NCBI RefSeq assembly: GCF_004010195.1
Contig: NC_057718.1
Span: 47,885,803 to 47,949,802, forward strand
Direction of reading: 5' to 3'
Source of the DNA: Chiloscyllium plagiosum
Taxonomy: Eukaryota
DNA: 64,000 nucleotides
Both the position numbers and the translations under genes were made by a program. Below, in pieces: positions 3,301 through 54,712 of this stretch. A model generated the notes under the pieces. It was not told where the DNA came from. It saw nothing but the letters and a program-made list of their open reading frames with translations, and searched no databases. The stretch's first letter is position 1. The number at the start of each line of letters is the position of its first letter.

Positions 3301-3559
3301 ATTCTCCCTCTGAAGTCTGTGTGATAGCTGCTGGAGGGTACTGTTTTTGCTGGACTTGCCAGTGATGTTGTAATTGCTCTCCTTCAACGTTGTCTTTGAG
3401 TGCCAAGGCCATAGTGACTCCAGTAATGGTGTTTTCCCTGTAGTATCTCTGAACAAATTGTGGGGAAGTTTCAGAAAGATGAAGCAATCTTATTGAAGGA
3501 ACACCTAAAACCTCGTATCCAGAGCACTAAAGCCTGATGTTAAGTCCTCATGCTGTGTC

Positions 3560-4420
3560 AAGAAGTGTGGTGCTGGAAAAGCACAGCCAGTCAGGCAGCA
3601 TTCGACGTTTTGAGCATAAACTCTTCATCAGGAATGTGGGGGGAGCTCAAGGGGGCTGAGAGATAAATGGGAGGGGGGGAAGGTAACTAGGAACACGATA
3701 GATAGGTGAAGGTGGGGTGATGGTAATGGTCGAAGCGGAGGGTGGAGTGGAGAGGTGGGAGAGAAGATGGACAGGTAGGACAGATCGAGAGGCCCCTGCC
3801 GAGTTTGAGGGTTAGATCTGGGATAAGGAGGGGGAGAGGAGATGAGGACACAGGTGAAATTGACATTAATCCCATGTGGTTGAAGGGTTCAGACCAGAAG
3901 ATGAGGTGTTCTTTTTCCAGTCGTTGGGTGGCTAGGATTTGGCATGGAGGAGGCCCAGGACTTGCATGTCCTTGGCAGAGTTGTGGAGGAGTTGAAGTGA
4001 TTGGCCATAGAGCAGTGGTGTTGTTTAGTGTATGTGTCCCGGATATTTTCTCTGAAATGTTCCAGAAGTTGGCTTCCTTCTCCCCAATGTAGAGGACACC
4101 ACATCAAGAGCAATGGACACAGTAGATGAGGTGTTTTAATGTGCAGGAAAATCTCTGCCGATGTGGAAGGATCCCTTCATCCAGCCTATCGCCATCACCC
4201 CCAACTCCATCCATCTATCGCATTCCTAGCTACCTTTCCCCCAATCCCACCTCCCCTCCCATTTATCTCTCTGCTCCCTTGCCACCCCCCCCATTTCTGA
4301 TGAAGAGCTTATACTCAAAACGTCAACTCTCCTCCTCAGATGCTGTCCAACTGGCTGTGCTTTTCCAGTGCCATACTTTTTGATATGACTTTGATCTCCA
4401 GCATCTACAGTCCTCACTTG
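3560..4420. mobile_element. Truncated Penelope-like retroelement with inverted pseudo-LTRs
   Basis: 3560-4170 on - holds a GIY-YIG endonuclease remnant (LHWGEGSQLLEHFRENIRDT..HCSMANHFNS, compare YIGET..L.ERFREH..VA.HFNS) plus a pLTR. 4175-4420 on + is a second pLTR ending ctccagcatctacagtcctcactt. Confidence 0.8.
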
Positions 4421-5529: not shown

Positions 5530-5633
5530 ATGAAGATATCAATGGAAGAGTTCAGAAGCTTGGCAACACGCTACCATGACCTTTATCAGTCATCTTTTGA
5601 TGCTGACTCTGCTACCTTGAGAAATGTTGAGCT
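5530..5633 (+). CDS. INTS7: Integrator complex subunit 7, internal exon (MKISMEEFRSLATRYHDLYQSSFDADSATLRNVEL)
   Basis: tttag acceptor; translation matches recalled vertebrate INTS7 (SMEEFRSLA.RY.DLYQ.SFDADSATLRNVEL). Ends in phase 2 at a GTATCCTTT U12 donor. Confidence 0.95.
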
Positions 5634-6799
5634 GTATCCTTTTCTGCTGAGCTGTAAATTACTGTTTTGAACATCAGTTGTGGTGACAAAAAAAAACTAT
5701 GTGGAGGCAAAATAACCAAAGAACTGTCAGTTGTGTAGATATTACTAGTCTCAGCAAGTAATTGGTTTGTGTATTACTTTTAATTAGCAATTGCAAATGC
5801 ATGCCGAATTGTTTTGAGTTACACAGCAAGGTGCAAATGGCCTTCTCTATCAACATTATTAAAATTCATAGGAACAGGAGTAGGCCATTCAGCCCATTAA
5901 GCTGCTCTGCTATTTAATATGATCGCGGCTAATTGAACACTTCAATGCCTTTTATCCACTTGATCCTTATAATTCTTTACACCATCGGTAATCAAATATT
6001 TATCAACATGTACCTTAAATATACTTTCACCAAGCTTCCACAGCTTTCTGGCTATAGAATTACAAAGATTCACCACCAACTGAATAAGAATAATTCTCCT
6101 TATTTAAGTCCCAAATGTGCCCCAAATGTACCATTAAATTGTGCCCCTGGTACTAGATTCCCTAAGCAGGGGAAACATCTTATTGTACGCACTCTGTGTA
6201 TTCCTTCAAGTATTCCGAAGGATTCAATGAGATCACCTCTCATTCTTCGAAACTTCAAAAAATACAGACCCAGTTTGCTCAATCTCTCTTCATTGGGCAA
6301 TCTCCCTGTCCCAGGAGCAAGTCTGGTAAACCTTGGTTGAACTCTTTCTGTGGCAATAATATCTTTCCTGAGATAAGAAGACCACAATTTGACAAGTTTT
6401 TAATTTGCACATGGGTTAACTCAATCCTGCCACCTGAAGACAGTATGTTGGTGGATTTTGTTTTATGCTGCATTGACATGAGCATTGGTAGTTAGTGATT
6501 GGGAAGCAGGGGGTGAATCAGATTGGTCAATCTTAAATCCTCTGTTTGACATTTAAAAGGCAAGAAGTGACCTACGTAAATGGTGATCAATCAATGTCAC
6601 CAGTCTTATGCTGTCCTAAAGGTACAAGTTGCCATCTTGAGTTGAATGCAGAGGCAGAATAAGTCAATAACATAAATTTTGAAGGGTTATTTCTGTTATC
6701 AAAGCTGGTCTCCATTTTTACTGACTTATAATGTACACAAATGAGAACATTTGTGACTAAATTAGTTGCTAATCACTGTGGCCTTAACTTTATTCATAG
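5634..6799 (+). other. INTS7: U12-type (minor spliceosome) GT-AG intron of INTS7
   Basis: 5' splice site GTATCCTTTT (5634-5643), branch point CCTTAAC (6782-6788) about 12 nt upstream of the AG at 6798-6799, and little polypyrimidine tract. The joined codon CT|A is Leu and keeps the frame. Confidence 0.92.
5868..6390 (-). mobile_element. CR1 LINE 3' fragment inside the U12 intron
   Basis: Translation WSSYLRKDIIATERVQPRFTRLAPG..EERLSKLGLYFLKFRRMRGDLIE (CR1 ORF2 C-terminus) and a CR1-type 3' tail. Confidence 0.85.
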
Positions 6800-6868
6800 A
6801 CAACAACAAAGTTGCCTACTGATTTCCCACTCTATTGAAGCTCTAATCCTAGATCCGGATTCTGCTAG
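6800..6868 (+). CDS. INTS7: INTS7 internal exon (QQQSCLLISHSIEALILDPDSA)
   Basis: 69 nt, phase 2 to 2, gtaatg donor; matches recalled INTS7 QQQSCLLISHAIEALILDPESA. Confidence 0.95.
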
Positions 6869-6914
6869 GTAATGGTGTGCCTTCTATTGTGTGGTAGTTT
6901 CTCTGATATAGTGG

Positions 6915-7141
6915 AGAAAGTGAGGTCTGCAGATGCTGGAGATCAGAGCTGAAAATGTGTTGCTGGAAAAGCGCAGCAGGTCAGGCAGCATCCAGGGAAC
7001 AGGAGAATCGACATTTCGGGTATAAGCCCTTCTTCAGGAATCTTCCTGAAGAAGGGCTTATGCCCGAAACGTCGATTCTCCTGTTCCCTGGATGCTGCCT
7101 GACCTGCTGCGCTTTTCCAGCAACACATTTTCATCTCTGAT
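6915..7141. mobile_element. Palindromic non-autonomous Penelope pLTR mini-element with hammerhead-like core
   Basis: 99-bp inverted arms 6942-7040 and 7043-7141 with 3 mismatches and a 2-nt spacer. Flanked by the direct repeat tctctgatatagtgg (6900-6914 and 7134-7148). The arms match the pLTR at 36735-36868. Confidence 0.85.
7046..7073 (+). ncRNA. Minimal type I hammerhead ribozyme-like motif in pLTR
   Basis: CTGAAGA-A-GGGC(TTAT)GCCC-GAAAC-GTC: conserved core, 4-bp stem II, an extra A after A9, and a loopless palindromic ACGT stem III. Stem I pairing is weak and activity is not shown. Confidence 0.6.
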
Positions 7142-8973
7142 ATAGTGGTATACCTTGAAATATCCTTGGCAGGAATTTATTATAAAGAAGTGGGGTGTGT
7201 AGTGGGTTAGAAACCTCATTTCCATTTCAATTTTGAAATCAACTGGACTGGTGGGATAATTTATTTTTGTTCTGCTAGTTGTGATGGACTTAGTGAAACA
7301 ATTTTTCAGATTCCTTCCTGGCCCTACTGCCCTGCATCAATTTCCTGATAAATTTAACAAGCAATGACTTAGATTGCCAGTCTCATTCAGACACCAGAAG
7401 CAGCAGTAGGTGATGTTTTAAGGTTGGCAATGAGGTTTGTTTGGAGTGCAGAATTGAAATATTGTTAGTTCATAGATGTTTGTGATATACATGACTTGAC
7501 GTCATTTAGAAGTAGTTCAAAAGTGTACCCAAAGGGTCATTATTAACATTCTCCGCTGCAAATCTTGTTAGGATATCAAATATCTAGCCAAGAATTGTGA
7601 AGTTTTTAACAGCCCAGCTTGCAGACAACTCCAGTGCTGCAAATTAAATATATCACAATCAAAAAGTTATAAAAATTCAATGACTGATACAGTGAAGTTT
7701 GAAACTTGATGAAATTCTACAGTTCACCTCTTCAGAAACCTCTTGGGAACCTCTGTTTAATGCTGATCTCTTGATTAGGATGAATGAATTGTTATGTTAC
7801 CAACTGCATAAGATATTGATGTTGGCTGTTGTAAAGGCAGCTTATGTTATCTTCTGTGGGATAGTACTCACTAAAGTATAAAATTAATTTTCAGAATTAC
7901 AGAAGTCATTTATAGCGTCAAAATTAGCCATAATATTTCAATAAAAAGCCAGTCTCAACAGCCTCTCCCTGATCTTCAGTGACACCACCATGATTCATTT
8001 CCACCATTAACCATTGACTCTGTACAGGCTGGGCCAGGCACATCAATATTCTGTCTGCAGTATCTGAGGAGATAGAGTGGTTTTGAACAAGTGGGTCATT
8101 TCATGATCTTTCAATGCCTTTACCATAAATCTTGACTGAAAGTTGTCTTTCCAATTCTGAAAATTGCAGCTTTAAGTGTATCATAGGGTCTCATCTGAAT
8201 CAAAGTTAAAGCCACTGAGAACATTTCTCACCCTGAAAAATCATGTTTGATATAGTATTTCAGGTTGTAAGTGTGCAGCACTTTGAACTCCTGATTGAAT
8301 TAACTTGCAAATTAAAATACATTGCTAAATATAAAAGCAATACAATATGTAATTAAAATGTTCTCACCAGACAGATCAAGCCAGATTGACTGGGCTGCAT
8401 CGAGCAGCAGAAGTTGATCTGTGCAGGTGATCAGCTGAAGTCCTAGGGCTACCTGTACTGACCAGTTTCTGTCATTAGATGGAGCCCTAGATTTCAGTCA
8501 AATTCCAAACAGGTTTGTGCAACACTAATAATTAAGAGAAGAAACCTGTGGCTGAAGGTCAAAGATAAGTGAATCAGTGGTAAGCAGGGACATGCTGTAC
8601 ATAATAGTCATTTGTAATGGAATACTCACAATGGGCAAGATGGTTATAGCCATAATATCACTTGAAGTTAAACAACCATTTAACACACAGCAGTTTACTT
8701 CATTGATGTCCCTGCCTCTCGGCTCAATACCCTATGTGTCTTATTAACAAAACACCATGACTGTAATATGTAAAATTCATATTGCAGCAACTCGTCAAGC
8801 TTACTTTGAAAGCATTCTAGCCTCATTATCTCTTCCATCAAGGACAAGAGCAACAGAATCATGAGCATACCATCTGATTTATTAAAAGGACTACAGAGGT
8901 TTAAGGAGAAGGCTACCACCAACTTCGTGGTAACTGGAAATGGCAATAAATGTGGCTTACCAATTTTGCCCAC

Positions 8974-9905
8974 ATAGTCATAGAGATATACAGCACGGAA
9001 ACAGACCCTTCAGTCCAACCCGTCCATGCTGACCAGATAATCCAATCTAATCTAGTACCATTCACCAGCACTTGGCCTATATCCCTCCAAACCCTTCCTA
9101 TTCATATACCCATCCAGATGCCGTTTAAATGTTGCAATTGTACCAGCCTCCACCACTTCCTTTGGCAGCTCATTCCATGCATGCACCACCTTCTGCAAGA
9201 AAATGTTGTCCATTAGGTCCCTTTTATATCTTTCCCCTCACAACCTAAACCTATGCCCCATAGTTCTGGACTATGGGGAAAAGACTTTGTCTATTTACCC
9301 TATCCATGCCCCTCATGATTTTATAAACCTCTATGAGGTCACTCCTCAGCCTTCAACGCTCCAGGGAAGACAGCCCCAGCCTAGTCAGCCTCGCCCTATA
9401 TACCTGCGACTACTTTCAAGGAGCTATGAACCTGCACTGCAAGGTCTCTTTGTTCAGCAACACTGCCTAGGACCTTACCATTAAGTGTATAAGTCCTGCT
9501 AAGATTTGCTTTCCTAAAATGCAGCACCTTGCATTTATCTAAATTAAAATCCATCTGTCACTCCTCAGCCCATTGGCCCATCTGATCAAGATCCTGTTGT
9601 AATCTGAGGTAACCCTCTTCGCTGTCCACTACACCTCCAATTTTGGTGTCATCTGCAAACTTACTAACTATACCTCCTGTGTTCACATCGAAATCATTTA
9701 TGTAAGTGACGAGAAGTATTGGGCCCAGCACCGATCCTTGTGGCACTCCACTGGTCACAGGCCTCCAGTCTGAGAAACAACACTCCACCACCACCGTCTG
9801 TCTTCTACCTTTGAGCCAGTTCTGTATCCAAATGGCTAGTTTTCCCTGTATTCCATGAGATTCAACCTTGCTAATCAGTCTCCCATGGGGAACCTTGTCA
9901 AACAT
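8974..9905 (-). mobile_element. CR1 LINE 3' portion with internal deletions
   Basis: RT motifs FDKVPHGRL..SGVPQGSVLGP..SKFADDTK and a catagtcatagag 3' tail. Confidence 0.9.
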
Positions 9906-11181
9906 CCGAGGAATAAAATTGTAAAACAAGTTACAAATCCAGAATATATTTTTCAGTCATTGTATTCAGTCATAATAAACACTTTCTGAGCAAACAGAGC
10001 TTCTGTACTGCTTGGGCTGCTGGTACCAAATTCTATCTGGTACTAAGAGTTTGCTGATTAGATGTGGATATCTTGCACAATTGAACCATCCTCAGATTAT
10101 TCTGTTCTAGAACATCCTAATTCACTGCCTGCTGTATTAGTATATGAATCTCAGAATTTTGATTATACTTAACTTATATATGTTACCTATTGAACCTTTT
10201 TGATTTATTTGTACAGTGGTTTATTTCAAGTTTTTCATGTGGCATGCCTGAAAACTCCAGTAGCAATGCTCTGAATTATTTCCTAGGTAGCAGAAGTATA
10301 ATCCCACTCTTAACTAATATTTACTTCCTAGTAACTATTCAAAAAATGTCATTTCCTCTGTATGAGAATATCTTGAGTACCAGATTAATTACTGATGATT
10401 TCAGATACCCTGGGAGACAATTTTTCATGGAGACAATTTTTTCTTTTGGTCAGAGCAACTAATGGACATTCGTTTCACCAATAATTTCAGTGAGAGAGCT
10501 ATTAAGCATCCACGATTCTTTGTGACAAACTAAACTAATTCCGTGAAATTTTCATGCAGATTGCTTTGCACTGGATGAAATATATTGCTCTGTTTTTGTC
10601 TTCTCTTACCTCCCATCCCATCTCGGTTCTTGGGAATGGGGTGAGGATGACTCAAATTTAGAATCCTATTTTCACATAAGTATCAATGTCTTCTTCAAAA
10701 ATACAAAATTGTGGCAATTTATACATTTTTGCTGTCTTTATATGAGACAGACCAATATGATAGTTTCTATGGGGGGGGGGGGGGGCAATGCTGTTGGATG
10801 CTTCAGGGCATCCTCAAAGTTGTTTTTAATTTATAATATTCCCTTTTTTTAACTTGGTGCATAAAGCACCTGATCTGGTTGATGCATCGACCTTGGCTAT
10901 CATAAATCTATTTAGATCATGAAGCTAGTTGCGTAGAGTGAATACTCTACAGAACAAAAGTGAGAGGGCTCTTTTATTAATTTTGCATTGCATAATTCTG
11001 TCACCCTCCTGTTCTTCAAATAAAATTGTAGCCATTCCTATCAATTCTAAAATATGTATTGAAAGAAATATAGTGCATGAACTAAAGGGTATAATATGTA
11101 TAAACTGACATGGCTTAGAGGTAAATGTATTATTGCTGAAAAGTTTTTTAAGATTATTTGTTTTAATTGATTCCCCTGCAG

Positions 11182-11314
11182 TTTCCAAGAATATAGTTGT
11201 AGTGGGAATGTGTACGCAGAGAGTGAATATGAAAGAAGCATGCTGTCTGTGTTTGCTCAGGTCCTGGAGGATGTTGAGGCCCTGAACAGAAAGTACCCTC
11301 CAGTTTCCTACTTG
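11182..11314 (+). CDS. INTS7: INTS7 internal exon (FQEYSCSGNVYAESEYERSMLSVFAQVLEDVEALNRKYPPVSYL)
   Basis: cccctgcag acceptor, gtaagt donor, 133 nt, phase 2 to 0; matches recalled INTS7 FQEY..SEYER.M.SV..VLE.VE.LNRKY.PVSY. Confidence 0.95.
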
Positions 11315-11439
11315 GTAAGTAACATAGGTTGCATAGGTAACATAGGCTTAATAACAAATGGTGGTAGCTTTGTGCCTGTAAAATACCTTTGTTGTGTGAA
11401 AAAATTTTCAGCTCCTCAAATAATTGAAAAAATTAATTT

Positions 11440-12240
11440 CTCCATTTGTTACAGCCGTTCTTCTTTCCCCAGATAGAGAAAACCTTTTCTCAGCATCTAC
11501 CATGTTCAACCCCTTAGTTTTATGCTTCAATTGAATCACCTCTTCTTCTAAGCTCCACAGAAAATAGTCAAGACTAATGTGGTGCTGGAAAAGCACAGCA
11601 GGTCAGGCAGCATCCGAGGAGCAGGAAAATCGATGTTTCGGATGGAAGCCCTTCATCAAGAATGGCTCCTCCCTGGAACGTCAATTTTCCTGCTCCTCGG
11701 ATGCTGCCTGACCTGCTGTGCTTTTCCAGCACCACTCTAATCTTGACTGTGATCTCCAGCATCTGCAGTCCTCACTTTCTCCGCAGAACATAGGCTTGCT
11801 GTACTGAATCTTGCCTCATAGGACATTCCCTGATCCAAAATCCAGTCCTGTGAACTGTCTTTTTGCTGCATCTCCGGCAAATATATTCTTTAGTAAGAAG
11901 GTCAAAACTGCACACAGTATTCCAGGTGTAGCTGCACAGGTGCCCTGTACTATTGAAGTAAGAGTTATTTGTTCCTCTTTTGTAACTGCTTGTTGTACGT
12001 ACTTGTTAACTTTGTGTAATTCATGTCCAAGCATATTAGATTCCTCTAAATGCAAACATTTCTGAATCTCTCACTTTCAAAAACATTGGGTTTTTTCTCA
12101 TTTTTCTTGTGAAAGTGAAATAACTTCACATTGCACTCTATCTGCCATATTGTTGTCCATCTGTCTATATCTATTTGCAACCTCTATGTATACTTGTTAC
12201 AGTTTGATTTTCCATCTAACTTTGTATCATGAGAGTTCTG
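11440..12240 (-). mobile_element. Old CR1 fragment interrupted by a pLTR palindrome
   Basis: CR1 ORF2 C-terminal similarity on both sides of 11568-11780. Confidence 0.6.
11568..11782. mobile_element. Palindromic Penelope pLTR mini-element
   Basis: Inverted arms gtggtgctggaaaagcacagcaggtcaggcagcatccgaggagcaggaaaat and their reverse complement. Imperfect TSD ctccacagaaaatag (11553-11567) vs ctccgcagaacatag (11779-11793). Confidence 0.85.
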
Positions 12241-12893
12241 GTACTTAAAATGAGTTTTATTTCTTTCTGTATTGAGACCCATATAAAATGTGTGCAACCT
12301 TTTGTTCTGGTGTCTTGGTTCACTATGTTCATAGGTATTTTTTATTCTTTTTGCTAAAATGATAATCATAAGACCTTTCATTTAACTACATAAAGCATGA
12401 CTGTAATTTTTATATTTAATATTAAAATTGACTTCAGGGAAAAAAAAATGTAAAGTTATTTTGAGTTGTGAAATTTTTACAGTAAACCATCGCTAAAACA
12501 CCCTAGGTTTAACTCCGTTAGTAAAGCCATGTATATAATAATTGATCTTTTGATTTTGCACATATACAGTTGTTCAAGTTCAGTCTTCAGGTCAATTTAG
12601 GAGGTAGGAAAATAATTGGATGTATGTTAGGGTGAGTTGAGCTGGGGATGGGAACAAGAGGGAGTTCTCAGCAGGTGGAGAATTGTGGAAAACACAGCAA
12701 AACACGGGGATCTGATTATATATTCAGTTTTCTTTTCAAATGCCATACAAATAATTATGCAGGTAAATGGCCTTGTTTCATTATCTACATATTAACTATA
12801 AAGGTAACAAACCTGTACAATTAATGTCATGTCCAGTGCTTATTTTCCTGCCGGTCAAATGTTCATTGATCTTCTCATGTAATTTGATTCCAG

Positions 12894-12992
12894 CACACCA
12901 TGTGCCTTTGTCGAGCTATCATTTCCTTGTTGAAGGTTCCCTTGTCATTTCAGAGATATTTCTTCCAAAAGATTCAGTCCACTAGCATTAAG
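12894..12992 (+). CDS. INTS7: INTS7 internal exon (HTMCLCRAIISLLKVPLSFQRYFFQKIQSTSIK)
   Basis: ttccag acceptor, gtatgt donor, 99 nt, phase 0 to 0; matches recalled INTS7 LLKVPLSFQRYFFQKLQSTSIK. Confidence 0.96.
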
Positions 12993-14798
12993 GTATGTCT
13001 ATTAAAAACTGTCTGATTTTGATATTAAAATTTTAAAGGTGGCTTCTTGGGCTTTGCAACAGTATAATTCATTTTTAATTCATGTTTAAACATTTTACAT
13101 AAATGCCACAAGTAACTTGTACTTCAGTTTAGAACGCTTCTCTTCCTTCATTCTTTATCTCTCTCCATGTCTACCCAGGTTCTATGCTGCCATTGAATTT
13201 CATCCACTAATTTATTGACCAGTCCAGTGTCTTATCAATATCCTCTTAAAATTTCCTTTGGATTTCAAAATTGTTGTAAACCATCTGCTTTAATAATACT
13301 TGCAAATTTGGACATCATCCACTTGAGCTTGTAGGGAAGTCATTGATATTTGTAATAAACATAAGCAGTCCCAAACAATACTGTGGGATGCTCTTCTACC
13401 ACTGAGACTTTTGTCTTTGATGGGATGTTGGCATTGCTAACTAGGTCAGCATTTGTTTCACATCCCTAATTGTCCTCAAGAATGTGATGGTGAGCTACTT
13501 TCCTGAACTGCTGCAGCCCTTGGAATGTAGGGATACTCACTGTGATGTTAAGAACGAAGTTCCAGGATTTACACCCAGTTGCAGTGTTGGACTGGGTGAT
13601 GTGGTATGTGACTTGGAGGGTAACTTGCAAGTATTAGTGTTCCCATGTATCTACTGCCATTGTCTTCTAGGTGGTGAAAATTTGAGGTTTCAAAGCTGCT
13701 AATAAAGGGTACTTAGAGAGTTGCTACAGTGCATTTTGTATGTGCTATCACTGCACTGATACTGATGGTGAAGTGAGTGAATGTTGAACATATTAGATAG
13801 GATGACAGTCCAGTCCTTTGTCTTGGATGGTGTTAAGTTTTTGTGTTGCTTGAACCACGCTCATATAAGCAAGTGGAGAGAATTGCACCTTAACTTGTGC
13901 TTTGTAGATGGTGGACAGATTTTGGGGAGATGAGCGGTGCGTTACTCACTCTAGAATTCCTAGCCTCTAATGTGGTCATTGCTCATCTCATGGAAATGCT
14001 CTGGGACTCCTACAACTACAATCTCCTTTCATTGTGATAGCTATTACTGCGACCAGTGAAAACTTAATCCCTTTGATTCACATTGATTTTGCTACAGGTA
14101 CTTGGTGGTACAGTTGTCTAAATGTTGCTTTCACTGCAAGGACAATCATTCTCCCTCACCTAGTCCTTACTCCTCAGCCCTTCCAACATTCTAACCAGTT
14201 TTTACTCTAGTTTTGTATCCTTTCCCTAATTCTGTGTCTCTTATTTTTCCCAGTAGACTCACGATGCAGCTTATCAAAAACCTTCTGCAAATTGATGCAT
14301 ATCACATCATTTGCATTTGTCCCATCACCATCATAATGTCTTCAAAGAATTGTCAGCCTGATCATGCACCATTTTCCTTTTTAAAATCATAATTTGCTGC
14401 TCCCAGTTATATTGGTGAGAGATGTTTCACCTTTAATTAAAGATTCCAAAGTTTCCCCACCATACATATGAAACAACGAGACTATACCTTCCTGTAGCAG
14501 TCCTCCTTCATTGCTGAGATGAACAAAGCAGCACACTCATTTTGTAGAGTATGCGTTCTCCATCACTTACCTGAAACATATTCGCTTATGAAAATATGAC
14601 TTACATTAGCTGCAATTCAGATTGCACGTTGACACCATATTTTATAGAACTATAAACTAACGTTTCTATTATGCAGGAACTCCTCCACTGAATAATATAA
14701 CAATCATCACTTTAGCAGTCTCTCAGCTAATTGAAATAAGGAAAGTATTTCATGAATTTACATTTTCCTTCAGGTAATTTTCACTGATTCTTTTGCAG

Positions 14799-14984
14799 TT
14801 GGCACTATCGCCTTCTCCTCGCACTCCAACTGAACCAATCACTGTACAGAATAACCAGCAACTGGCCCTGAAAGTAGAAGGTGTTATCCAGCATGGCTCC
14901 AAGCCTGGCTTCTTTCGGAAAATTCAGGCAGTTTGCCTAAACGTCTCATCCTCACTGCAGACCAAAGGTGTACAGGATTATAAG
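14799..14984 (+). CDS. INTS7: INTS7 penultimate exon (LALSPSPR...QDYK)
   Basis: ttttgcag acceptor, gtaact donor, 186 nt; LALSPSPRTPTEPITVQNNQQLALKVEGVIQHGSKPG matches INTS7. Confidence 0.97.
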
Positions 14985-15572
14985 GTAACTGCCTTCATCA
15001 CGTTTACAAAGCTGTATTTATCCTCAATAGTATTGATAACCCAATATGTAATCAGTTTGAGTTGTTATAAATGAATATCGATGCATGTTTGTAAGAACAT
15101 GTTTTCTAACTGATCTGTTGTACTTGTAGATTGTTAGGGTTAAACGCCTGAGAACAACATCAACCCAGTTTTCATTCTGCATTAATAATGAGTGTATTGC
15201 TTGGTGGTATGTTATACTGATTAGGATACAATTTGACGCCCTTGCCTAATGTCTTTGTGTGCACCCTTAAAGCCTATAAGTTGTAATGTCTTCATGAAAG
15301 TGTAAATGTATTTAATTCAAGATAAAACTGCAGTTGTTCCAATATATTGCAGCTACACATTGATGTCTTTGTCCATTTGTCACTTGATATTATCATTTGG
15401 TAGATTGTTAGCAATGTTCATTGCTTGTACTTTATTTCAAAAGTGGATGAATAATTGAGACTGATGATGTTTTGCATTTATAAAGTCAGTTAAAGTTATA
15501 ACTTCAGTAAAATTGAGCTTTATAATGCTGACAAATGTGCATGAGTTTAAATTTCTCATGTCCATTTCTCAG

Positions 15573-15857
15573 GTATTGCTGGAGAATATGACGAATGAAG
15601 TAGAGCAGCGGGTGGAGCCCCATAACGACTATTTCAGCACTCAGTTCCTGTTGTGTTTTGTTGCACTTGGGAACCACAGTGTTACTGTTGAAGCATCTGT
15701 CATTGATTCTAATGGCATAATTTGGAAAACAGGACCCAGAACTACTATTGCTGTCAAATCCATGGAGGATCCATTCTCTCAGCAATTACGCCTGCAGCAG
15801 CAACAACAGCAGTCACAACAGTCACAGCTGCAAAGGAACGCACTCTGCAGATTTTAG
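15573..15857 (+). CDS. INTS7: INTS7 terminal coding exon (..NMTNEVEQRVEPHNDYFSTQFLL..Q-rich tail..RF*)
   Basis: tttctcag acceptor, in frame with the previous exon, TAG stop at 15855-15857; matches the INTS7 C-terminus. Confidence 0.97.
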   Translation, partial: VLLENMTNEVEQRVEPHNDYFSTQFLLCFVALGNHSVTVEASVIDSNGIIWKTGPRTTIAVKSMEDPFSQQLRLQQQQQQSQQSQLQRNALCRF

Positions 15858-16660
15858 TGACGAATCATTTCAACTTGGGAAATATGCTTTGTGAATATTT
15901 TGTCAGGTAATAAGGACTTTGTTAAATATCAGATGATCAGCTTAACATTGGTTGAGGAATATCAGGGATGTAATTCTTCCTTCAAATTCCCTAATGTTGT
16001 ATTAAACAGTTTACTCTGAATTAAACTCTGTTTTTTTGCAATCTTCAAGTTCCTTCACCAGCTCTTTCTGCCTTGTCCACCATAAAATGAAACAAACTGA
16101 CTATCACTGCTAGTACTGCTCTTTGGATCAGTTGATGTGTGTTGAATTAGATTGCACACTTTATTGTTCGAAACTCCCTACTTTCTAAGAGTATGCAATG
16201 ATTTAACTGGCTCTGACAAAGCTGAGGTTCCGAGTAAATAAGTTTTATGCTGATACCTTCCAGAATCTGGCTATGGACATTTTTTAAAGTCATGTTTTTG
16301 ATTAATTCTTTACCCATTGATTGTTAATTTTGGAAGGTTTATGAACTAGGATCAAGCAGTGACCAGTGACGTGTGTCAATCACGTAACAATATAAAATTT
16401 GTGTCTTCAAAATTAATGGATGAGGAAACAACTTTTAAAAGAGCCTCTTGCTCCTTTTTCCTTGATTCCCTTAACCAATAAAAATATATCAGTCTGCCTT
16501 GAAGATTTCAATTGATTGAGCAACCCACTGAGGCTTTTGAAGAATAAAGTCTCAGATATTCACTGCACTTTGTGAAAACATGCTTCCTGATTTCACAATT
16601 ATAAACTGAATTGAAAAAGCCTATCTGAAAGGTGTTTAAGTCCTGACTAGTTACAAAGCC

Positions 16661-16873
16661 ACAAATTACTGCAGATGCTGGTACTGAAAACAACAAATGC
16701 TGGATATCACAGCAGATCAGGCAGCATCTATGGAGATAGAGCAAACTAATGTTTCGAGTCTAGATGACTCTTCATCAGAGCTTAATGAAGAATCATTGAG
16801 ATTCGAAACGTCAGCTTGCTCTCCCTCCATGGATGCTGCCTGATCTGCTGTGATATCCAGCATTTGTTGTTTT
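16661..16873. mobile_element. Palindromic pLTR mini-element of a second Penelope family
   Basis: Inverted arms aaaacaacaaatgctggatatcacagcagatcaggcagcatc and their reverse complement. The - strand core reads CTGATGA-agagtc(atcta)gactc-GAAAC. Degenerate TSD agttacaaagcc (16649-16660) vs aattataaggcc (16874-16885). Confidence 0.8.
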
Positions 16874-18473
16874 AATTATAAGGCCGCTTTGGATACAAGT
16901 CTGATTTTGCAAGCTTCACAATTATTAAGTTTATCACAATAAACACAAAAGAATGCTTCTTTATAAAGCAATGAATTCAGTCAGTTCACTATGGAACACC
17001 AATTTGTGGCTTCCTACCTGACTGGGTGCTTGTTTCTTGTTTTGACTGAGCTCTTTCTTCTCTCCTCATCTTGCACGGCTAGCTGCTAAAAATTACGACC
17101 ATTAAATTCTTGCTAGCTACTTTTATAAATAGTCAGTGATATTTCTGAGTTCTGGTCGGCTTGCCAATGCATGAGCAGCATATGATGCATCTCTGGTTAT
17201 CTAGGTGATGTTTGCCCAATTGGTTTCTTAAGGTGGCGGTCATCTTATTGATATAATTTATCATCATCTGACTGATTTCCTAAAGTTTCAAGTCATTTTG
17301 AAAGGATAATACTATCTTTCTTTGCTTTTCAGAGAGATAAGAGTCACATGTTCAGGAATCAAACCTAGCACTGTACTGAATATGTACACCTTAGGATGTC
17401 TCATAGGAAATCATTATGTCGTTCATTAAAGACAAATTATATAACAATGTACTATTGGAAGAAAATCCTGTAAAATACACATCACAAGTACCAATGTAAA
17501 ACTATTCATAGGCCAGTACAAAATATAAAAGAAAATCACAGTTTCTCTTTAAGTGACTTTAAGTCAAAAAGTTAATCAAAGTTTAAAAAAAAATAAAATT
17601 GTGTGGCTTCAAATAAGTTGTCACTCATATTTGTCCTGTAACAAAGCAAGCCATAAAGGTGGATCTCCTTTACCCTTGAGTTAATCTCAATCCTACATGA
17701 TTTATTTACTGTACACAGATACCCAAATACCATTGCTCCTGCATAACTTCACATTTTTCAATTTTAGCATGATCAGAATTTATTGCCAAATCTGACTTGC
17801 TCTAAGAGGTGGTGGTCATTCACCTTGAAATTCTGCAGTCTGAATGAGTAAAGTGCTGTCATAGTACACTGGTTACAGGATTTAGGTACACTGGTAACTT
17901 ATTTCAAATAAAGAAAGGTGAATATTTTGTGTGGTGATTTATATTTTGTCAGGAATGTGTGGCTGTTCCCATGCAGCTGCTTCTGTTGCCCATCTGGCAA
18001 AGTCTTCAAAGAACCCTTGGCTAGTTGCTCATGTTTCTGTCCTCATGAATGAGTTGCTGTAGAGCAGTCTGTACATGATACACATTGTACTTGTGGTGGA
18101 GGAAATAGTTGTTCAAAGGAGTGCATAGACTTCTGGTCAAGTGGGTACTTTTGTCCTGGATGATATCGAGCATCTTGAGAATTACTGCAGATCCACCTAT
18201 CCCATTACACTTCTGCCTTGTGTCAAACAGGCGATGGTGAAGCTCTGCAGAAGAAATTAGCATAGAGAAAAACAAATTTTCTTTTGAGTGAGTGAGCCAG
18301 TTTTAAAGCTATTTTTTGCCATAGATCAGATTATTTTGATAGGTGTTTACTGCCATTATATATTTTTAAAAATATATGTTTGGTTTATTGTAAATTATGA
18401 AAGTGAAGAATTTCAATTTTTAAAAGCTTTATGCATTTCTTCAGATTAAATAAATAGTCAGAATACGAGATCA

Positions 18474-18677
18474 GGCAAAAGTGAGGACGACAGATGCTGG
18501 AGATTAGAGTCGAGAGTGTGGTGCTGGAAAAGCACAGCAGGTTAGGCAGCATCTGAGGATGAGGAAAATCAACGTTTTGGGCAAAAGCCCTTTATCAGGA
18601 ATTCCTGAAACATTGATTTTTCGCTCCTCCAATACTACCTGACCTGCTGTGCTTTTCCAGCACCACACACTCGACCC
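18474..18677. mobile_element. Palindromic Penelope pLTR mini-element (older)
   Basis: Inverted arms gtcgagagtgtggtgctggaaaagcacagcagg and cctgctgtgcttttccagcaccacacactcgac. TSD cagaatacgagatca (18459-18473) vs caggatactagatta (18678-18692). Confidence 0.8.
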
Positions 18678-18989
18678 CAGGATACTAGATTACCCTTCTC
18701 TAGGCAATTTTTATATGAATGCCATTTCCTGCAATCAAGTGATGAGTAACCTAAACTATCAATAGAATTTGCATTGCAAAAAAATAAAAAATACAAAATA
18801 TGTTTCTGGATCCTACATTTGATGATACATTAAGCACTCAGAATCTCCAGTGGGATCTCTGTTAAATGTTTTGCATTAATAATATTTATTAAATGTTATA
18901 TATCTTCATTTCTTGACTCATTTCAGTTGCTGAATAATCCATCTGTGGAGCTAGTCTCTGCCAAAGGTGGATCAGGTGATGTTGGATGA

Positions 18990-34565: not shown

Positions 34566-36868
34566 CCCACGCCGATCTCCGCCCCCACGCCTAACCCTAC
34601 CCCCACCAGGTCCTAGCACCCAGCCCTGCCATATATTCACCATCCCTCCAGACCTCCCCCTCTCTGAGGATGAAAGATTAGTTCTCAGCAGAGGCCTCAC
34701 CTTCATCTCCCTACACTCCCAGATTAACAAATTCAACACGCGGCGAGACATCGAGCATTTCTTCCGCCGCCTTCGCCTCCGCGCCTACTTCTTCAACCAG
34801 GACTTCCGCCCACCCTCTGATGACCCCTTCTCCTGCCTCCAACACACCCCATCCACCTGGACACCCCGTGCTGGCCTCTTACCCACCTTCGATCTCTTCA
34901 TAGCCAACTGCCGCCGCGACATTGACCGCCTCAACCTGTCCACCCCTCTCACCCCCGCAATGTGCAACCCTCCGCTCCAACCCCAACCTCACCATCAAAC
35001 CGGCAGACAAGGGAGGTGCGGTGGTAGTTTGGCGCACCGATCTTTATATTGCTGAGGCTAAACGCTAGCTCGCGGACACCTCCTTCTACTGCCCCCTTGA
35101 CCATGACCCCACCTCCCACCACCAAACCATCATCTCCCAGACCATCCATAACCTCATCACCTCAGAGGATCTCCCATCCACCGCCTCCAACCACATAGTC
35201 CCACAACCCCGCATCGCCTGTTTCGACCTCCTGCCCAAAATCCACAAACCTGACTGCCCGGCTGACCCATTGTCTCAGCCTGCTCCTGCCCACTGAACTC
35301 ATTTCTGCATACCTTGACACGGTCCTGTCCCCCTTAGTCCAAGAACTCCCCACCTACGTTCGGGACACCACCCATGCCTTCCACCTCCTCCATGATTTTC
35401 GCTTCCCCAGCCCCCAACGCCTTATCTTCATCATGGACATCCAGTCCCTATATACCTCCATCCCCCATCACTAAGGCCTCAAAGCCCTCTGCTTCTTCCT
35501 TTCCCGCCGAACCAACCAGTACCCTTCCAGTGATACCCTCCTTCGACTGACTGAAGTGGTCCTCACCCTGAACAACTTCTCCTTCCAATCCTCCCAATTC
35601 CTCCAAACCAAAGGAGTAGCCATGGGCACCCACATGGGTCCCAGCTATGCCTGCCTCTTCGTGGGATATGTGGAACATTCCTGAAGGGCTAATGCCCGAA
35701 ACGTCGATTCTCCTGTTCCCTCGATGCTGCCTGACCTGCTGCGCTTTTCCAGCAACACATTTCCATCTCATCTTCCACAGCTATACTAGCACCACCCCCC
35801 ACCTTTTCCTCCGCTACATCGATGCCTGTATCGGCGCTACCTCATGCTCCGAGGAGGTTGAACAGTTCATCCACTTTACTAACACCTTCCACCCGACCTC
35901 AAATTTACCTTACCATCTCAGACTCCTCCCTCCCCTTCCTAGACCTCTCCATTTCTATCTCGGGCCGCGCCTCAACACAGACATTTACTATAAACTGACC
36001 GACTCCCACAGCTACCTAGATTACACCTCCTCCCACCCTGCCCCCTGCAAAAACGTCATCCCATATTCCCAATTCCTTCGCCTCCGCCGCATCTGCTCCC
36101 AGGAGGACCAATTCCAATACCGAACAACCCAGATGGCCTCCTTCTTCAAAGACCGCAATTTCCCCTCAGACGTGGTTGACGATGCTCTCCACCGCATCTC
36201 CTCCACTTCCTGCTGCTCCGCCCTTGAACCCCGCCCCTCCAAACCCAAAACCCCACTGGTCCTCACCTACCACCCCACCAACCTCCAGATACATCGTATC
36301 ATCCGCCGTCATTTCCGCCACCTCCAAACAGACCCCACCACAAAGGATNNNNNNNNNNNNNNNNNNNNNNNNNNNNNNNNNNNNNNNNNNNNNNNNNNNN
36401 NNNNNNNNNNNNNNNNNNNNNNNNNNNNNNNNNNNNNNNNNNNNNNNNNNNNNNNNNNNNNNNNNNNNNNNNNNNNNNNNNNNNNNNNNNNNNNNNNNNN
36501 NNNNNNNNNNNNNNNNNNNNNNNNNNNNNNNNNNNNNNNNNNNNNNNNNNNNNNNNNNNNNNNNNNNNNNNNNNNNNNNNNNNNNNNNNNNNNNNNNNNN
36601 NNNNNNNNNNNNNNNNNNNNNNNNNNNNNNNNNNNNNNNNNNNNNNNNNNNNNNNNNNNNNNNNNNNNNNNNNNNNNNNNNNNNNNNNNNNNNNNNNNNN
36701 NNNTTTTATCTTAGCCTGCTTGACACACCTTCCTCATTCCTGAAGAAGGGCTTATGCCCGAAATGTCGATTCTCCTGCTCCTTTGATGCTCCCTGACCTG
36801 CTGCACTTTTCCAGCAACACATTTTTAAGCTCTGATCTCCAGCATCTGCAGTCCTCATTTTCTCCTCA
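34565..36868 (+). mobile_element. Young 5'-truncated Penelope-like retrotransposon (RT, gap, terminal pLTR)
   Basis: LSEDERLVLSRGLTF..FFRRLRLRAYF; IKPADKGGAVVVW; LLPKIHK; MDIQSLYTSIPH; GVAMGT.MGPSYA; FLRYIDA (YIDD mutated); IPYSQFLRLRRICS. C-rich and CpG-rich. pLTR at 36704-36868. Several stops and frameshifts. Confidence 0.9.
36349..36703. other. Assembly gap (355 N)
   Basis: Run of n characters. Confidence 1.
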
Positions 36869-38178
36869 TCAGTGATAGGCAACATGGTTTTGTGTGATGG
36901 GAAATTGTGCCTTACCAACTTAATAGAGTTCTTTGAGAAAGTGACCAAGTTGATAGTTGAAGGAACAGCTGTTGATGTCATATACATGGACTTTAGTAAG
37001 GCATTTGAGAAGGTTCCCCATGTTTAGCTAATGGAGAAAGTGACATCACATGGTGTACAGGGTGTTCTAGCGAGATGGATAAAGAACTGGTTGAGCAAAA
37101 GGAGACAGTAGTACTTGAAGGGAGTTTCTCGAAATGGAGGAAGGTGACCAGTGGTGTTCCACAGGGATCAGTGCTGGGGCCACTGTTGTTTGTGATATAT
37201 GTAAATGGCCTGGAAGAGGGCATTGTTGGTCTGATCAGTAAGTTTGTAGATGACACGAAGATTGGGAGAGTAGCAGAAAGCATAGCAGACTGGCAAAGAT
37301 TACAGGAGAATATAGATAGACTGGAGAGTTGGGCGGAGAAGTGGCAGATTGAGTTCAATCCAGGCAAATGTGAGGTGATGTATTTTGAGAAGTGTAATTC
37401 TAGAACCAACTGTACTGTAAACTGAAGAGCCTTGGGTAAAGTTGATGAGCAGAGAGATCTGGGAGTTCAGGTCCATTGTACCCTGAAGGTGGCTGCACAG
37501 GTGGATAGAGTGGTCAAGGCGGCATGTGGTATGTGTGCCTTCATTGGAATGGGTATTGAGGTCAGGTCACGTTAAAATAGTACAAGATTTTGGTTCAGCT
37601 ACATTTAGAATATTGTGTACAGTTCTGGTCGCCACATTACCAAAAGGATGTGGATGCTTTGGAGAGGGTTCAGAGAAAGTTTACAAGGATGTTGCCTGGT
37701 ATGGAAGGGTTCAGAGAAAGTTTACAAGGATGTTGCCTGGTATGGAAGGTGCTAGCTATGAAGAGAGGTTGAATAGGTTAGGATTATTTTGATTAGAAGA
37801 AAGGAGATTGAGGTCTACAAAATCATGAAGGGGATAGACAGGGTGGATGGAGATAAGCTTTTTCCCAGGGTGAAGGATTCAGTAACAAGAGGTCATGTGT
37901 TCAAGGTGAGAAGTGAAAAGTTTAAGGGGGATAAATGTGGAAAGTATTTTACGCAGAGGGTGGTAGGTGCCTGGAACGTGTTGCCAGCAGAGGTGATAGA
38001 TGCAGGCACAGTAGATTCATTTAAGGTGCGTCTGGACAAATGCATGAGTAGGTGGGGAGTAGGGGGATACAGATGCTTAGGAATTGGCCGATAAGTATAG
38101 ACAGTGGATTTGGATCGGCTCAACCTTGGAAGGCCAAACAGCCTGTTCCTGGGCTGTACATTTTCTTCGTTCTATCTA
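36869..38178 (+). mobile_element. CR1 LINE 3' ~1.3 kb
   Basis: QHGFV..CLTNLIEFF..DVIYMDFSKAF..SGVPQGSVLGPLLF..SKFVDDTK..LEYCVQFWSP..FTQRVVGAWN, ending in a ttcgttctatcta tail. Confidence 0.92.
37665..37746 (+). repeat. Perfect 41-bp tandem duplication within CR1
   Basis: agggttcagagaaagtttacaaggatgttgcctggtatgga occurs twice. Confidence 0.95.
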
Positions 38179-39359: not shown

Positions 39360-39849
39360 AGAGTCATAGAGATGTACAGCATGGAAACAGACCCTTTGGT
39401 CCAATCTGTCCATGCCGACCAGATATTCCAACCCAATCTTGTCCCACCTGCCAGCACCCGGCCTATATCCCTCCAAACCCTTTCTATTCATATGCCCATC
39501 CAGATACCTTTTAAATGTTGCAATTGTACCAGCCTCCACCACATCCTCTGGCAGCTCATTCCATACACGTACCACCCTCTGTGAAAACGTTGCCCCTTAG
39601 GTCTCTTTTGTATCTTTCCACTCTCACCCTAAACCTCTGCCCTATAGTTCTGGACTCCCTGACCCCAGGGAAAAAACTTTGTCTATTTATCCTATCCATA
39701 CCCCTCATAAATTTGTAAACCTCTATAAGGTCACCCCTCAACCTCTGACCCTCCAGGGAAAACAGCCCAGCCTGTTCAGCCTCTCCCTATAGCTCAAATC
39801 CTCCAACCCTGGCAACATCCTTGAAAGGGTTCAGAAAAGATTTACAAGG
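39360..39849 (-). mobile_element. Young CR1 3' fragment with 5' inversion
   Basis: 39360-39823 is a CR1 3' end on -. 39824-39849 is the immediately upstream CR1 sequence in the opposite orientation. Confidence 0.88.
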
Positions 39850-52985: not shown

Positions 52986-53323
52986 AGGATAAATAGACAA
53001 AGTATTTTCCCTGGGCAAGGTGAGTCCAGAACTAGAGGGCATAGGTTTAGGGTGAGAGGGGAAAGATATAAAAGAGAACTAAGGAGCAACTTTTTCCCCG
53101 CTGAGAGTGATAAGTGTATGGAATGAGCTGCCAGAGGAAGTGGTGGAGGCTGGTACAATTGCAACATTTAAAAGGTATCTGGATGGGCATATGAATAGAA
53201 AGGGTTTGGAGGGATATGGGCTGGGTGCAGGCAGGTGGGACAAGATTGGGTTGGAATATCTGGTCGGCATGAACGAGTTGGACCAAAGGGTCTGTTTCCA
53301 TGCTGTACATCTCTATGACTCTA
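52986..53323 (+). mobile_element. Young CR1 3' fragment
   Basis: Same family as 50166 and 39360; ends catctctatgactcta. Confidence 0.92.
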
Positions 53324-54477: not shown

Positions 54478-54712
54478 CTTAGACTCAGTTTTACAGCACG
54501 GAAATAGACTCTTCAGTCCAACTTGTCCATGGCGACCAGAACCTAAATTAATCAAGTCAATTTTCCAACATTTGGTCCATACCCCTCTAAACCCTTTCTA
54601 TTCATGTACCTATCCAGATGACTTTAAAATGGTGCAATTGTACCAGCTTCCATTACATCCTCTGGCAGTTCATTCCATGCACGCACCACTGTGTGAGAAA
54701 GTTGCCCTTTTG
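54478..54712 (-). mobile_element. CR1 3' fragment (older)
   Basis: Diverged copy of the same CR1 3' end. Confidence 0.7.

What the first reader, a model, noticed from the sequence alone, without database searches (positions are those of the whole stretch)
6915..18677. Family of fold-back Penelope pLTR mini-elements carrying hammerhead-like cores, with a coding relative in the same window
Seen: four ~200-bp insertions (6915-7141, 11568-11782, 16661-16873, 18474-18677) consist only of two inverted pLTR halves. Each has a 12-15 bp direct repeat flank, and one arm always carries an extra ~25-35 nt tail (gatctccagcatctgcagtcctcactttctcc-type). The inversion point always falls at or within the CTGANGA..GAAAC motif. 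3560-4420 is a longer version of the same architecture. Three of the four match the pLTR ending the coding Penelope at 36704-36868; the 16661 copy belongs to a second family. Established: Penelope-like elements have GIY-YIG endonucleases and inverted pLTRs, and many carry minimal hammerhead ribozymes. Inference: self-cleavage defines a tiny RNA that Penelope RT copies twice in opposite orientation, giving a ribozyme-bounded non-autonomous retroelement. Two families converge on the same geometry.
Basis: partly seen in the sequence, partly recalled or inferred. Interest (0 to 1): 0.7.

Follow-up and report, generated by a model that had tools for sequence, protein, structure and literature searches.

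The report
Hairpin stubs of shark Penelope retroelements
The small mirror-image insertions are real, but they are stub-sized leftovers of Penelope-like jumping genes in a known layout, and their shared starting point hints at where the element's RNA begins rather than where its ribozyme cuts.

Summary
The four ~200-bp hairpins are real: head-to-head halves of a Penelope-like element (PLE) terminal repeat (pLTR), a tail on one arm, and a target duplication that is convincing in 3 of 4. This layout (inverted pLTR, one tail, TSD) is already described for PLEs. Copies instead begin at a fixed A (36736), the first base of hammerhead helix I, in both families; RNA-read depth rises 5.6-fold over 24 nt there. 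Junctions differ between copies, so the hairpins look made anew at each insertion, not copied from a mini-master. Best reading (0.55): two priming sites near the 5' end of an uncut PLE RNA give two run-off cDNAs that are joined head to head. The start-site claim is inferred, not shown. The scan noted the same pattern and the same RNA-start idea before on other windows of this genome. New here: in listed asymmetric joints the tailed arm is the shortened one (8 of 9), as twin priming on one RNA predicts. Ribozyme activity is untested.

The parts
6900..6914 (.). Copy A left TSD (15 bp, perfect; right copy 7134-7148)
   Evidence: 1 of 1000 random site pairs scores as well
6913..7041 (-). Copy A tailed arm; spans reference 36736-36865, i.e. 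from the fixed A to the tail end
7043..7141 (+). Copy A tail-less arm; reference 36737-36836; its last 7 nt are shared between target duplication and template; holds the only strict hammerhead core (C3 at 7046)
11553..11793 (.). Copy B with TSD (11553-11567 / 11779-11793, 13 of 15); tail-less arm 11568-11664 (-) reaches reference 36735; tailed arm (+) starts later, in or after stem II, and ends at 11782
16661..16875 (.). Copy C, second family; tailed arm 16661-16782 (-) starts at an A 4 nt before C3; tail-less arm (+) from about 16783; TSD weak (10 of 13)
18459..18690 (.). Copy D with TSD (18459-18471 / 18678-18690, 11 of 13); tailed arm 18472-18602 (-) reaches 36736; perfect palindromic junction at 18601-18602; tail-less arm (+) lacks about 18 nt of the core and stem II
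3558..4420 (.). Long copy: tail-less arm (-) about 3558-4172 with the C-terminal GIY-YIG region (4160-3870), 3' UTR and core (C3 at 3631); tailed arm (+) about 4190-4420 (C3 at 4297); short palindrome at the junction 4169-4174
35676..35766 (+). Copy E: single tail-less arm inserted inside the RT of the coding copy; starts at reference 36735; 1 difference in 61 nt from A's tail-less arm; no TSD found
34580..36348 (+). Decayed, 5'-truncated PLE ORF (RT and thumb), broken by stops, frameshifts and copy E; runs into the N gap
36704..36866 (+). Reference pLTR with 32 nt of upstream sequence: fixed start A at 36736, core C3 at 36740, predicted cut after 36767, second priming zone about 36830-36836, tail end 36865-36866

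Best explanation
These are dead-on-arrival insertion products of endonuclease-bearing Penelope-like elements, built anew at each event. (1) A PLE RNA starts at the A four bases before the hammerhead core, within the upstream pLTR [inferred]. (2) The PLE protein nicks both target strands 13-15 bp apart [TSDs shown in 3 of 4; nicking of both strands shown in vitro for the anole element]. (3) The two target 3' ends prime reverse transcription at two internal sites about 30-35 nt apart, helped by 2-7 nt of target-template match [two end positions shown; priming mechanism from the anole element]. (4) When priming happens on the pLTR at the 5' end of the uncut RNA, the polymerase runs off the RNA end after about 95 or 130 nt [inferred]. 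The leading, tail-less cDNA reaches that end; the trailing, tailed cDNA stops at the second primer, part way, or displaces it and also reaches the end [pattern seen; mechanism inferred]. (5) The two cDNA 3' ends are joined through 0-4 nt of self-complementary sequence, giving the head-to-head hairpin [junctions shown; joining step inferred]. Priming on a downstream pLTR gives longer arms, as in 3558-4420. The hammerhead is carried along uncut and does not set the boundaries. Confidence that they are PLE insertion stubs: about 0.9; the figure below is for the whole run-off model.
For: Every one of the 4 hairpins has one arm starting at the same base (reference 36735-36736; same register in family 2), and so does copy E. 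Raw RNA reads of run X21 (2,791 laid of 12,955,460 read): summed depth 183, 196, 203, 214, then 287, 633, 907, 1192 over 36728-36751, then 1285-1497 across the cut site. DNA contigs: loose ends at 36736 in 376 (X1) and 334 (X13) contigs and at 36745 in 374 and 298, with A/T-rich consensus of 0.30-0.34 agreement, as expected of unrelated flanks; 3' ends at 36865-36867. Of 9 opposite-strand joints listed, 8 have one arm reaching 36734-36745; in 8 the shortened arm is the tailed one; in 5 it is the tail alone, from 36830-36831. In the window, B and the long copy also have the tailed arm shorter and E has only the tail-less arm. Junctions differ. The start base sits in an initiator-like context in 2 of 3 copies with upstream sequence, and a TTTAT motif lies 31-32 nt upstream in 3 of 3 (consensus and position recalled). 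Literature: two RT start sites define the tail, both strands are cut and extended, uncut RNA is the main template (PMC11167929); Penelope transcripts start within the upstream pLTR (PMC2377424).
Against: No RNA start site was observed: the table of places where many molecules begin or end is empty. The initiator-like pattern occurs at 1.2-1.7% of positions by chance and one of three copies misses it. Only 15 of 67 joints were shown and none is a symmetric hairpin; assemblies collapse such hairpins, so the joint sample is biased. Position 36830 is also where the B/D subfamily is clipped against this reference (754 and 620 loose ends), so tail-only joints could be partly artefact. Part of the depth step may come from subfamilies whose upstream sequence no longer aligns (X21 loose ends at 36745 agree 0.75, X16 at 36732 agree 0.45; no 36736 row among the top six for X21 or X16). 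In A, C and D the tailed arm is full length and the tail-less arm is the one trimmed by 1-5 nt or deleted inside. In D. virilis the transcript starts upstream of an intron whose 3' end, not the start site, maps to helix I (PMC2377424, PMC4209133). The in vitro data are from a Poseidon element; the nearest relatives here carry a Neptune-type linker motif.
Confidence: 0.55

Rival explanations
1. Same PLE by-products, but the fixed edge is set by a block or hand-over at the hammerhead (folded or dimerised ribozyme, or bound protein) on a longer RNA. Two RNAs paired as a double hammerhead could hold the two cDNA ends together.
For: The edge coincides with the first base of helix I in both families. 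Minimal PLE hammerheads are thought to act as dimers (PMC4209133; PMC6765202 passages). Both arms copy the same stretch, which two RNAs would allow.
Against: A polymerase moving 3' to 5' meets helix I at 36768-36771 first; a stall should leave edges there, and depth shows no step. Monomer folds are weak (z -0.4 to -2.3 for six core regions).
Confidence: 0.17
2. The edge is made at DNA level: the PLE endonuclease cuts at ATT (36736-36738) in its own pLTR or cDNA, or a cDNA self-primes at a short palindrome (the Arkhipova model).
For: The anole protein prefers 5'-ATT-3' (PMC11167929). Short palindromes lie at the junctions of A, C, D and the long copy, as reported in rotifers (PMC3846280). Direct joints from 36866 back to 36736 exist (17 and 7 contigs, letters between not known).
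Against: Family 2 starts at the same register without ATT. Junction spacers of 0-2 nt (A, D) are too tight for an intramolecular fold-back. Self-priming alone does not explain TSDs with both ends on two fixed template sites.
Confidence: 0.13
3. A SINE-like non-autonomous unit of about 130 nt (or a hairpin master) with its own promoter is transcribed and mobilised in trans.
For: A discrete unit 36736-36866 is very abundant: 65,324, 39,025 and 7,518 contigs laid in runs of three organisms. One loose-end consensus (X1, 36745) resembles a recurring short palindromic junction.
Against: Junctions of A, B, D differ; listed joints are diverse. The anole protein needs about 55-60 nt of ORF RNA beyond the priming site (first 172 nt of ORF, starts at 111-118; PMC11167929), which stubs lack. 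Stub subfamilies track longer copies (A and E with the 36704 pLTR; B and D with the long copy).
Confidence: 0.1
4. One reading: self-cleavage releases a tiny RNA that is copied twice, giving a ribozyme-bounded element.
For: Hammerhead-like fold with compensatory changes. One listed joint has an arm ending at 36766, and direct joints from 36767-36771 back to 36736 exist.
Against: Arms keep the ribozyme part upstream of the cut; no depth step and no listed loose-end pile at 36768. In the anole element cleavage is dispensable and no RNA-seq reads end at the cut (PMC11167929).
Confidence: 0.03
5. Cut-and-paste MITE.
For: Short, with inverted arms and a TSD.
Against: Ends are asymmetric (tail), TSD length varies, centres differ, and the arms are PLE pLTR sequence contiguous with a GIY-YIG region in the long copy.
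Confidence: 0.02

Closest known systems
Complex insertions of endonuclease-positive PLEs: inverted pLTR plus tail (PMC3846280, passages and Discussion read; PMC8557442, passages read; PMC2377424, parts 1-3 of 4 read)
   Same: Head-to-head inverted pLTR, 30-40 bp tail on one end only, TSD (8-10 bp in rotifer), palindromes at the inverted junction.
   Different: Here the unit is reduced to the two pLTR halves; TSDs are 13-15 bp; arm starts pile at one base at the front of the hammerhead.
Minimal hammerheads in PLE pLTRs (PMC4209133, parts 1-2 of 4 read)
   Same: Type I minimal motif, bulged base before stem II, no stem III, short helix I; that paper already mentions dual motifs 100-700 bp apart on opposite strands and many single motifs from truncated PLEs.
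   Different: It does not describe the junction position, the tail or the TSD of such pairs in the parts read; here the two cores are adjacent. Cleavage is untested here.
Anole Poseidon element PAc in vitro (PMC11167929, parts 1-2 of 4 read; 3 supplementary files searched for four terms, no hits)
   Same: Two internal RT start sites that bracket the tail; both DNA strands cut and extended; hammerhead dispensable.
   Different: Different clade (relatives here have a Neptune-type CxxxxCxxC linker); the parts read do not deal with how inverted copies form or where copies begin.
Non-LTR retrozymes (bioRxiv 10.64898/2026.07.22.740005, part 1 of 5 and passages read)
   Same: Non-coding, hammerhead-bearing, PLE-derived.
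   Different: Retrozymes are head-to-tail tandem arrays with a ribozyme in each unit; these are head-to-head pairs with no tandem array.
Twin priming of LINE-1 (recalled, not read here)
   Same: Two target ends prime on one RNA, giving an inverted segment with microhomology at the junction.
   Different: L1 arms do not overlap and the second site is variable; here both sites are fixed and arms often overlap almost fully, which needs strand displacement or a second RNA.

Membership tests
Endonuclease-positive PLE insertion | pLTR belongs to an element encoding RT and C-terminal GIY-YIG endonuclease | tested here: met
   RT/thumb region has 69 relatives, many with PF00078 and PF01541; the long copy joins the endonuclease region (E 7e-10) to the pLTR. 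For the coding copy the link crosses an N gap; for family 2 no coding partner lies in the window.
Endonuclease-positive PLE insertion | Head-to-head inverted pLTR | tested here: met
   5 of 7 pLTR-bearing insertions in the window
Endonuclease-positive PLE insertion | 30-40 bp tail at one end only | tested here: met
   A, B, D, long about 30-35 nt; C shorter (about 20 nt)
Endonuclease-positive PLE insertion | Target site duplication | tested here: met
   Above chance in A, B, D; not in C, long copy or E. Empty sites not tested.
Neptune clade | Cys-rich Zn-finger-like linker between RT and endonuclease | tested here: inconclusive
   Present in close relatives P0003 and P0004; in the window this part falls in the N gap; no tree built.
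Minimal type I hammerhead | CUGANGA and GAAA-CG-UH cores with a bulge and stem II | tested here: met
   Intact in 1 of 9 arms examined, decayed by 1-2 changes in most others; stem II pair 2 is G-C in 4 and A-U in 2 of 6 tailed arms. Few independent changes.
Minimal type I hammerhead | Match to an Rfam hammerhead model | tested here: not met
   minimal motifs lacking stem III may fall outside those models (inference)
Minimal type I hammerhead | Self-cleavage as monomer or dimer | not testable with these tools
   needs in vitro assay
Non-LTR retrozyme | Head-to-tail tandem units each with a hammerhead | tested here: not met
   All pairs in the window are head-to-head
Non-autonomous family from a master copy | Shared junction and ends across copies | tested here: not met
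   Junctions differ in A, B, D; small sample
MITE | Symmetric terminal inverted repeats and fixed TSD length | tested here: not met

The most novel reading that the evidence does not exclude
In shark PLEs the RNA begins exactly at the first base of the hammerhead, and the protein primes mostly on this 5' pLTR, so most insertions are retrovirus-style 'strong-stop' run-off products. Two such cDNAs from two fixed priming sites on one RNA are joined to give the hairpins. The same step would explain the inverted 5' pLTR and junction palindromes of full-length PLEs, why PLEs need tandem copies, and would recast the ribozyme as a device that clips the capped first 32 nt off the element's RNA rather than one that releases it from a precursor.
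Probability: 0.3. Interest if true: 0.62.

Novelty: new member of a known kind. Interest (0 to 1): 0.33.

Why it matters
How PLEs make their pseudo-LTRs and inverted ends, and what their hammerheads do, are open questions. A very abundant, fixed-edge stub population gives a direct test: map the RNA start and count arm ends genome-wide. Practically, these stubs can be misfiled as MITEs or microRNA hairpins (Rfam miRNA models score them below threshold), and they put ~100-bp double-stranded RNA into introns (copy A lies about 45 nt past an INTS7 splice donor). As a class of element it is ordinary.

Tried and rejected
No own genome was held, so no genome-wide census or empty-site test was possible. 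Pattern scans found nothing in metagenome, viral or prokaryotic contigs; a shorter pattern gave 119 loci, none with more than 34 nt of similarity, taken as chance. Pfam scans of ORF fragments were blank; identity came from homologues. No RNA holder was listed for the hairpin, which says nothing on expression. The single-cell poly(A) run gave no pile of molecule ends; such libraries are poor for start sites. An ATG in the pLTR opens a frame through the tail in A, B and the 36704 copy, but it matched none of the 69 relatives and family 2 has an early stop, so I do not claim it as the ORF start. A splice acceptor at 36736 was rejected (no AG). An alternative hammerhead register cutting at 36736 was rejected by inspection (no stem III partner). 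Literature searches for an explicit description of PLE hairpin stubs, twin priming or strong-stop products in PLEs, or shark PLE structure found none beyond the papers cited; Repbase, Dfam and most subscription papers are not covered, and the paper on dimer cleavage (PMC5785218) was not held. Supplements of the bioRxiv preprint were not seen and could list this family.
Full report
Observation. The four short elements are real inverted pairs: arms of 94-99 nt at 84-97% complementarity for A (6915-7141), B (11568-11782) and C (16661-16873), and a 51-nt seed at 88% for D (18474-18677), whose centre is broken by a deletion. Five of the seven are inverted pairs. All are head to head, and only one arm carries the tail. 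With boundaries held to +/-5 nt, the TSDs of A (15 of 15), B (13 of 15) and D (11 of 13) are matched by 1, 2 and 9 of 1000 random site pairs; those of C and the long copy by 64 of 1000; E has none.

Identity. The RT/thumb stretch 35770-36348 has 69 relatives among 313 candidates, the best from carpet sharks (72% identity), and full-length ones carry RT and GIY-YIG domains. The coding copy is 5'-truncated, decayed, split by copy E and ends in 355 N; its join to the 36704 pLTR is not shown. The long copy supplies that link for its own subfamily: the C-terminal endonuclease region (4160-3870, E 7e-10) runs on into 3' UTR and pLTR. Distances over 61 shared columns give three groups: A, E and the 36704 pLTR (1-6 differences); B, D and the long copy; and family 2 (C; 21-29 differences from the others in the 60-61-column comparisons). 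Close relatives have a Neptune-type cysteine linker (definition from PMC8557442 passages), so Neptune is likely but untested.

Hammerhead. Rfam gave no hammerhead hit. A minimal descriptor gave 7 hits, 6 in these arms, against 0.33 in 30 shuffles. The fold is the minimal PLE type of PMC4209133: core, bulged A, 4-5 bp stem II, no stem III, short helix I. Stem II pair 2 is G-C in 4 and A-U in 2 of 6 tailed arms; helix I also changes on both sides between families. These are few independent events. Only 1 of 9 arms keeps both cores intact. Activity is untested.

Where the arms begin. In reference coordinates the predicted cut follows 36767. The arms do not start there. A's arms start at 36736 and 36737, B's tail-less arm at 36735, D's tailed arm at 36736, E at 36735, and C's tailed arm at an A in the same register, 4 nt before C3. 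That A is the outermost base of helix I. I laid four public runs on 36704-36880. In raw RNA reads (X21; 2,791 laid, both strands alike, so mostly intronic copies) depth is flat at 183-214 over the first 24 nt, climbs to 1192 by 36746-36751, and changes by 1.04-1.08x per bin across the cut site; about 14% of peak depth continues upstream. In DNA contigs of two organisms the main 5' loose ends listed are 36736 (376 and 334 contigs) and 36745 (374 and 298), with low-agreement A/T-rich flanks, plus 36830 (754 and 620), which is a subfamily clip; 3' ends are 36865-36867. Twenty-four rows were shown and 804 were not; none shown is at the cut site. So the edge is real and is the front of the ribozyme. 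Against over-reading: divergent upstream sequence in other subfamilies adds to the step, and RNA reads are weighted by host expression.

How the hairpin forms. Junctions differ: A has one extra base between mirrored halves, D a perfect palindrome, B a shortened tailed arm, C and the long copy short palindromes. The target duplication shares 7 nt with the template at A's tail-less end and 2-4 nt at several other primed ends, which fits priming by target 3' ends. Of 15 joints shown (52 not shown), 9 change strand; in 8 one arm reaches 36734-36745, in 8 the shortened arm is the tailed one, and in 5 it is the tail alone. That is what two primers on one RNA predict: the inner primer leads and reaches the end, the outer one trails. 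B, E and the long copy agree; A, C and D have both arms nearly full, which needs strand displacement or a second RNA. The joint sample is biased, because symmetric hairpins collapse in assemblies and none is listed, and 36830 is also a clip point. A 7-bp complementary pair (around 36785-36791 with 36840-36846) is nearly invariant in both families and lies between the two priming sites; invariance is not proof of structure.

Mechanism. The anole element cuts and extends both DNA strands, starts reverse transcription at two internal sites that bracket the tail near the start of the ORF, needs ORF RNA beyond them, and uses uncut RNA (PMC11167929). Penelope transcripts begin inside the upstream pLTR (PMC2377424). 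Put together, priming on the pLTR nearest the RNA 5' end would give run-off cDNAs of about 95 and 130 nt, the sizes seen. The fixed A sits in an initiator-like context in 2 of 3 copies with upstream sequence, with a TTTAT motif 31-32 nt upstream in 3 of 3; both consensus notions are recalled, and the initiator pattern is common (1.2-1.7% of positions). I put this model at 0.55.

Comparison with what is known. Inverted pLTR, one-sided tail, TSD and junction palindromes are described in PMC3846280 (passages, Discussion), PMC8557442 (passages) and PMC8969392 (passages). PMC4209133 (parts 1-2) notes dual minimal hammerheads on opposite strands 100-700 bp apart. Retrozymes are tandem and do not fit (bioRxiv 10.64898/2026.07.22.740005, part 1 and passages). 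PMC12910113 and PMC8455134 (passages) added nothing on structure. Nine searches found no paper that maps a fixed start at helix I or proposes run-off twin priming for PLEs; repeat databases and subscription papers are not covered. The scan's own notes report this pattern many times in this genome (103 of 187 notes fit 'Penelope hammerhead'), several with the same RNA-start idea; I had written that idea down before seeing them, and they are not independent evidence.

Verdict. Real, PLE-derived, known layout in minimal form; not a ribozyme-bounded new class. The fixed start and the direction of asymmetry are useful mechanistic clues that CAGE and a genome-wide census could settle. Interest 0.33.

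Noticed in passing
window 5530-5633 and 6801-6866: Two consecutive exons of Integrator subunit 7 (INTS7). The intron between them starts with a U12-type donor at 5634 (consensus recalled). Copy A lies about 45 nt past the next donor.
   Followed up: partly
window 35676-35766: Young single tail-less pLTR arm inserted inside the RT of an older PLE, with about 6 nt shared with the target at its 5' edge and no TSD.
   Followed up: yes
window 36349-36703: The 355-N gap separates the PLE ORF from its supposed 3' pLTR; about 600 nt would be expected, and the flanks on the two sides look like different LINE copies, so the gap may join unrelated insertions.
   Followed up: partly
window 36704-36880, run X21 against X1 and X13: RNA reads list more A>G places (22 vs 5-6) and T>C places (37 vs 12-17) than DNA contigs; A>G at 36754, 36796 and 36835 is 2.5-4x commoner in one read orientation. 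Possible A-to-I editing of hairpin RNA, but non-editing changes are also raised and no matched DNA exists.
   Followed up: partly
reference 36767-36771 back to 36736: Some contigs repeat just the ribozyme segment in direct orientation, jumping back from near the predicted cut site to the fixed start. Could be a trace of cleavage or of a 4-nt direct repeat shared by both places.
   Followed up: no
window 36785-36791 with 36840-36846: A 7-bp complementary pair nearly invariant across both families, between the two priming sites; candidate protein-binding stem.
   Followed up: partly
P0006 C-terminus: A predicted zebra-shark protein reads through the 3' UTR into what looks like a translated hammerhead core of another family, so such PLE ends are being annotated as host proteins.
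   Followed up: no
window 53106-53219 / 54577-54690 and 37948-38036 / 39499-39587: Longer-spaced inverted repeats (114 nt, 84%; 89 nt, 71%) unrelated to the pLTR; probably oppositely oriented LINE fragments.
   Followed up: no
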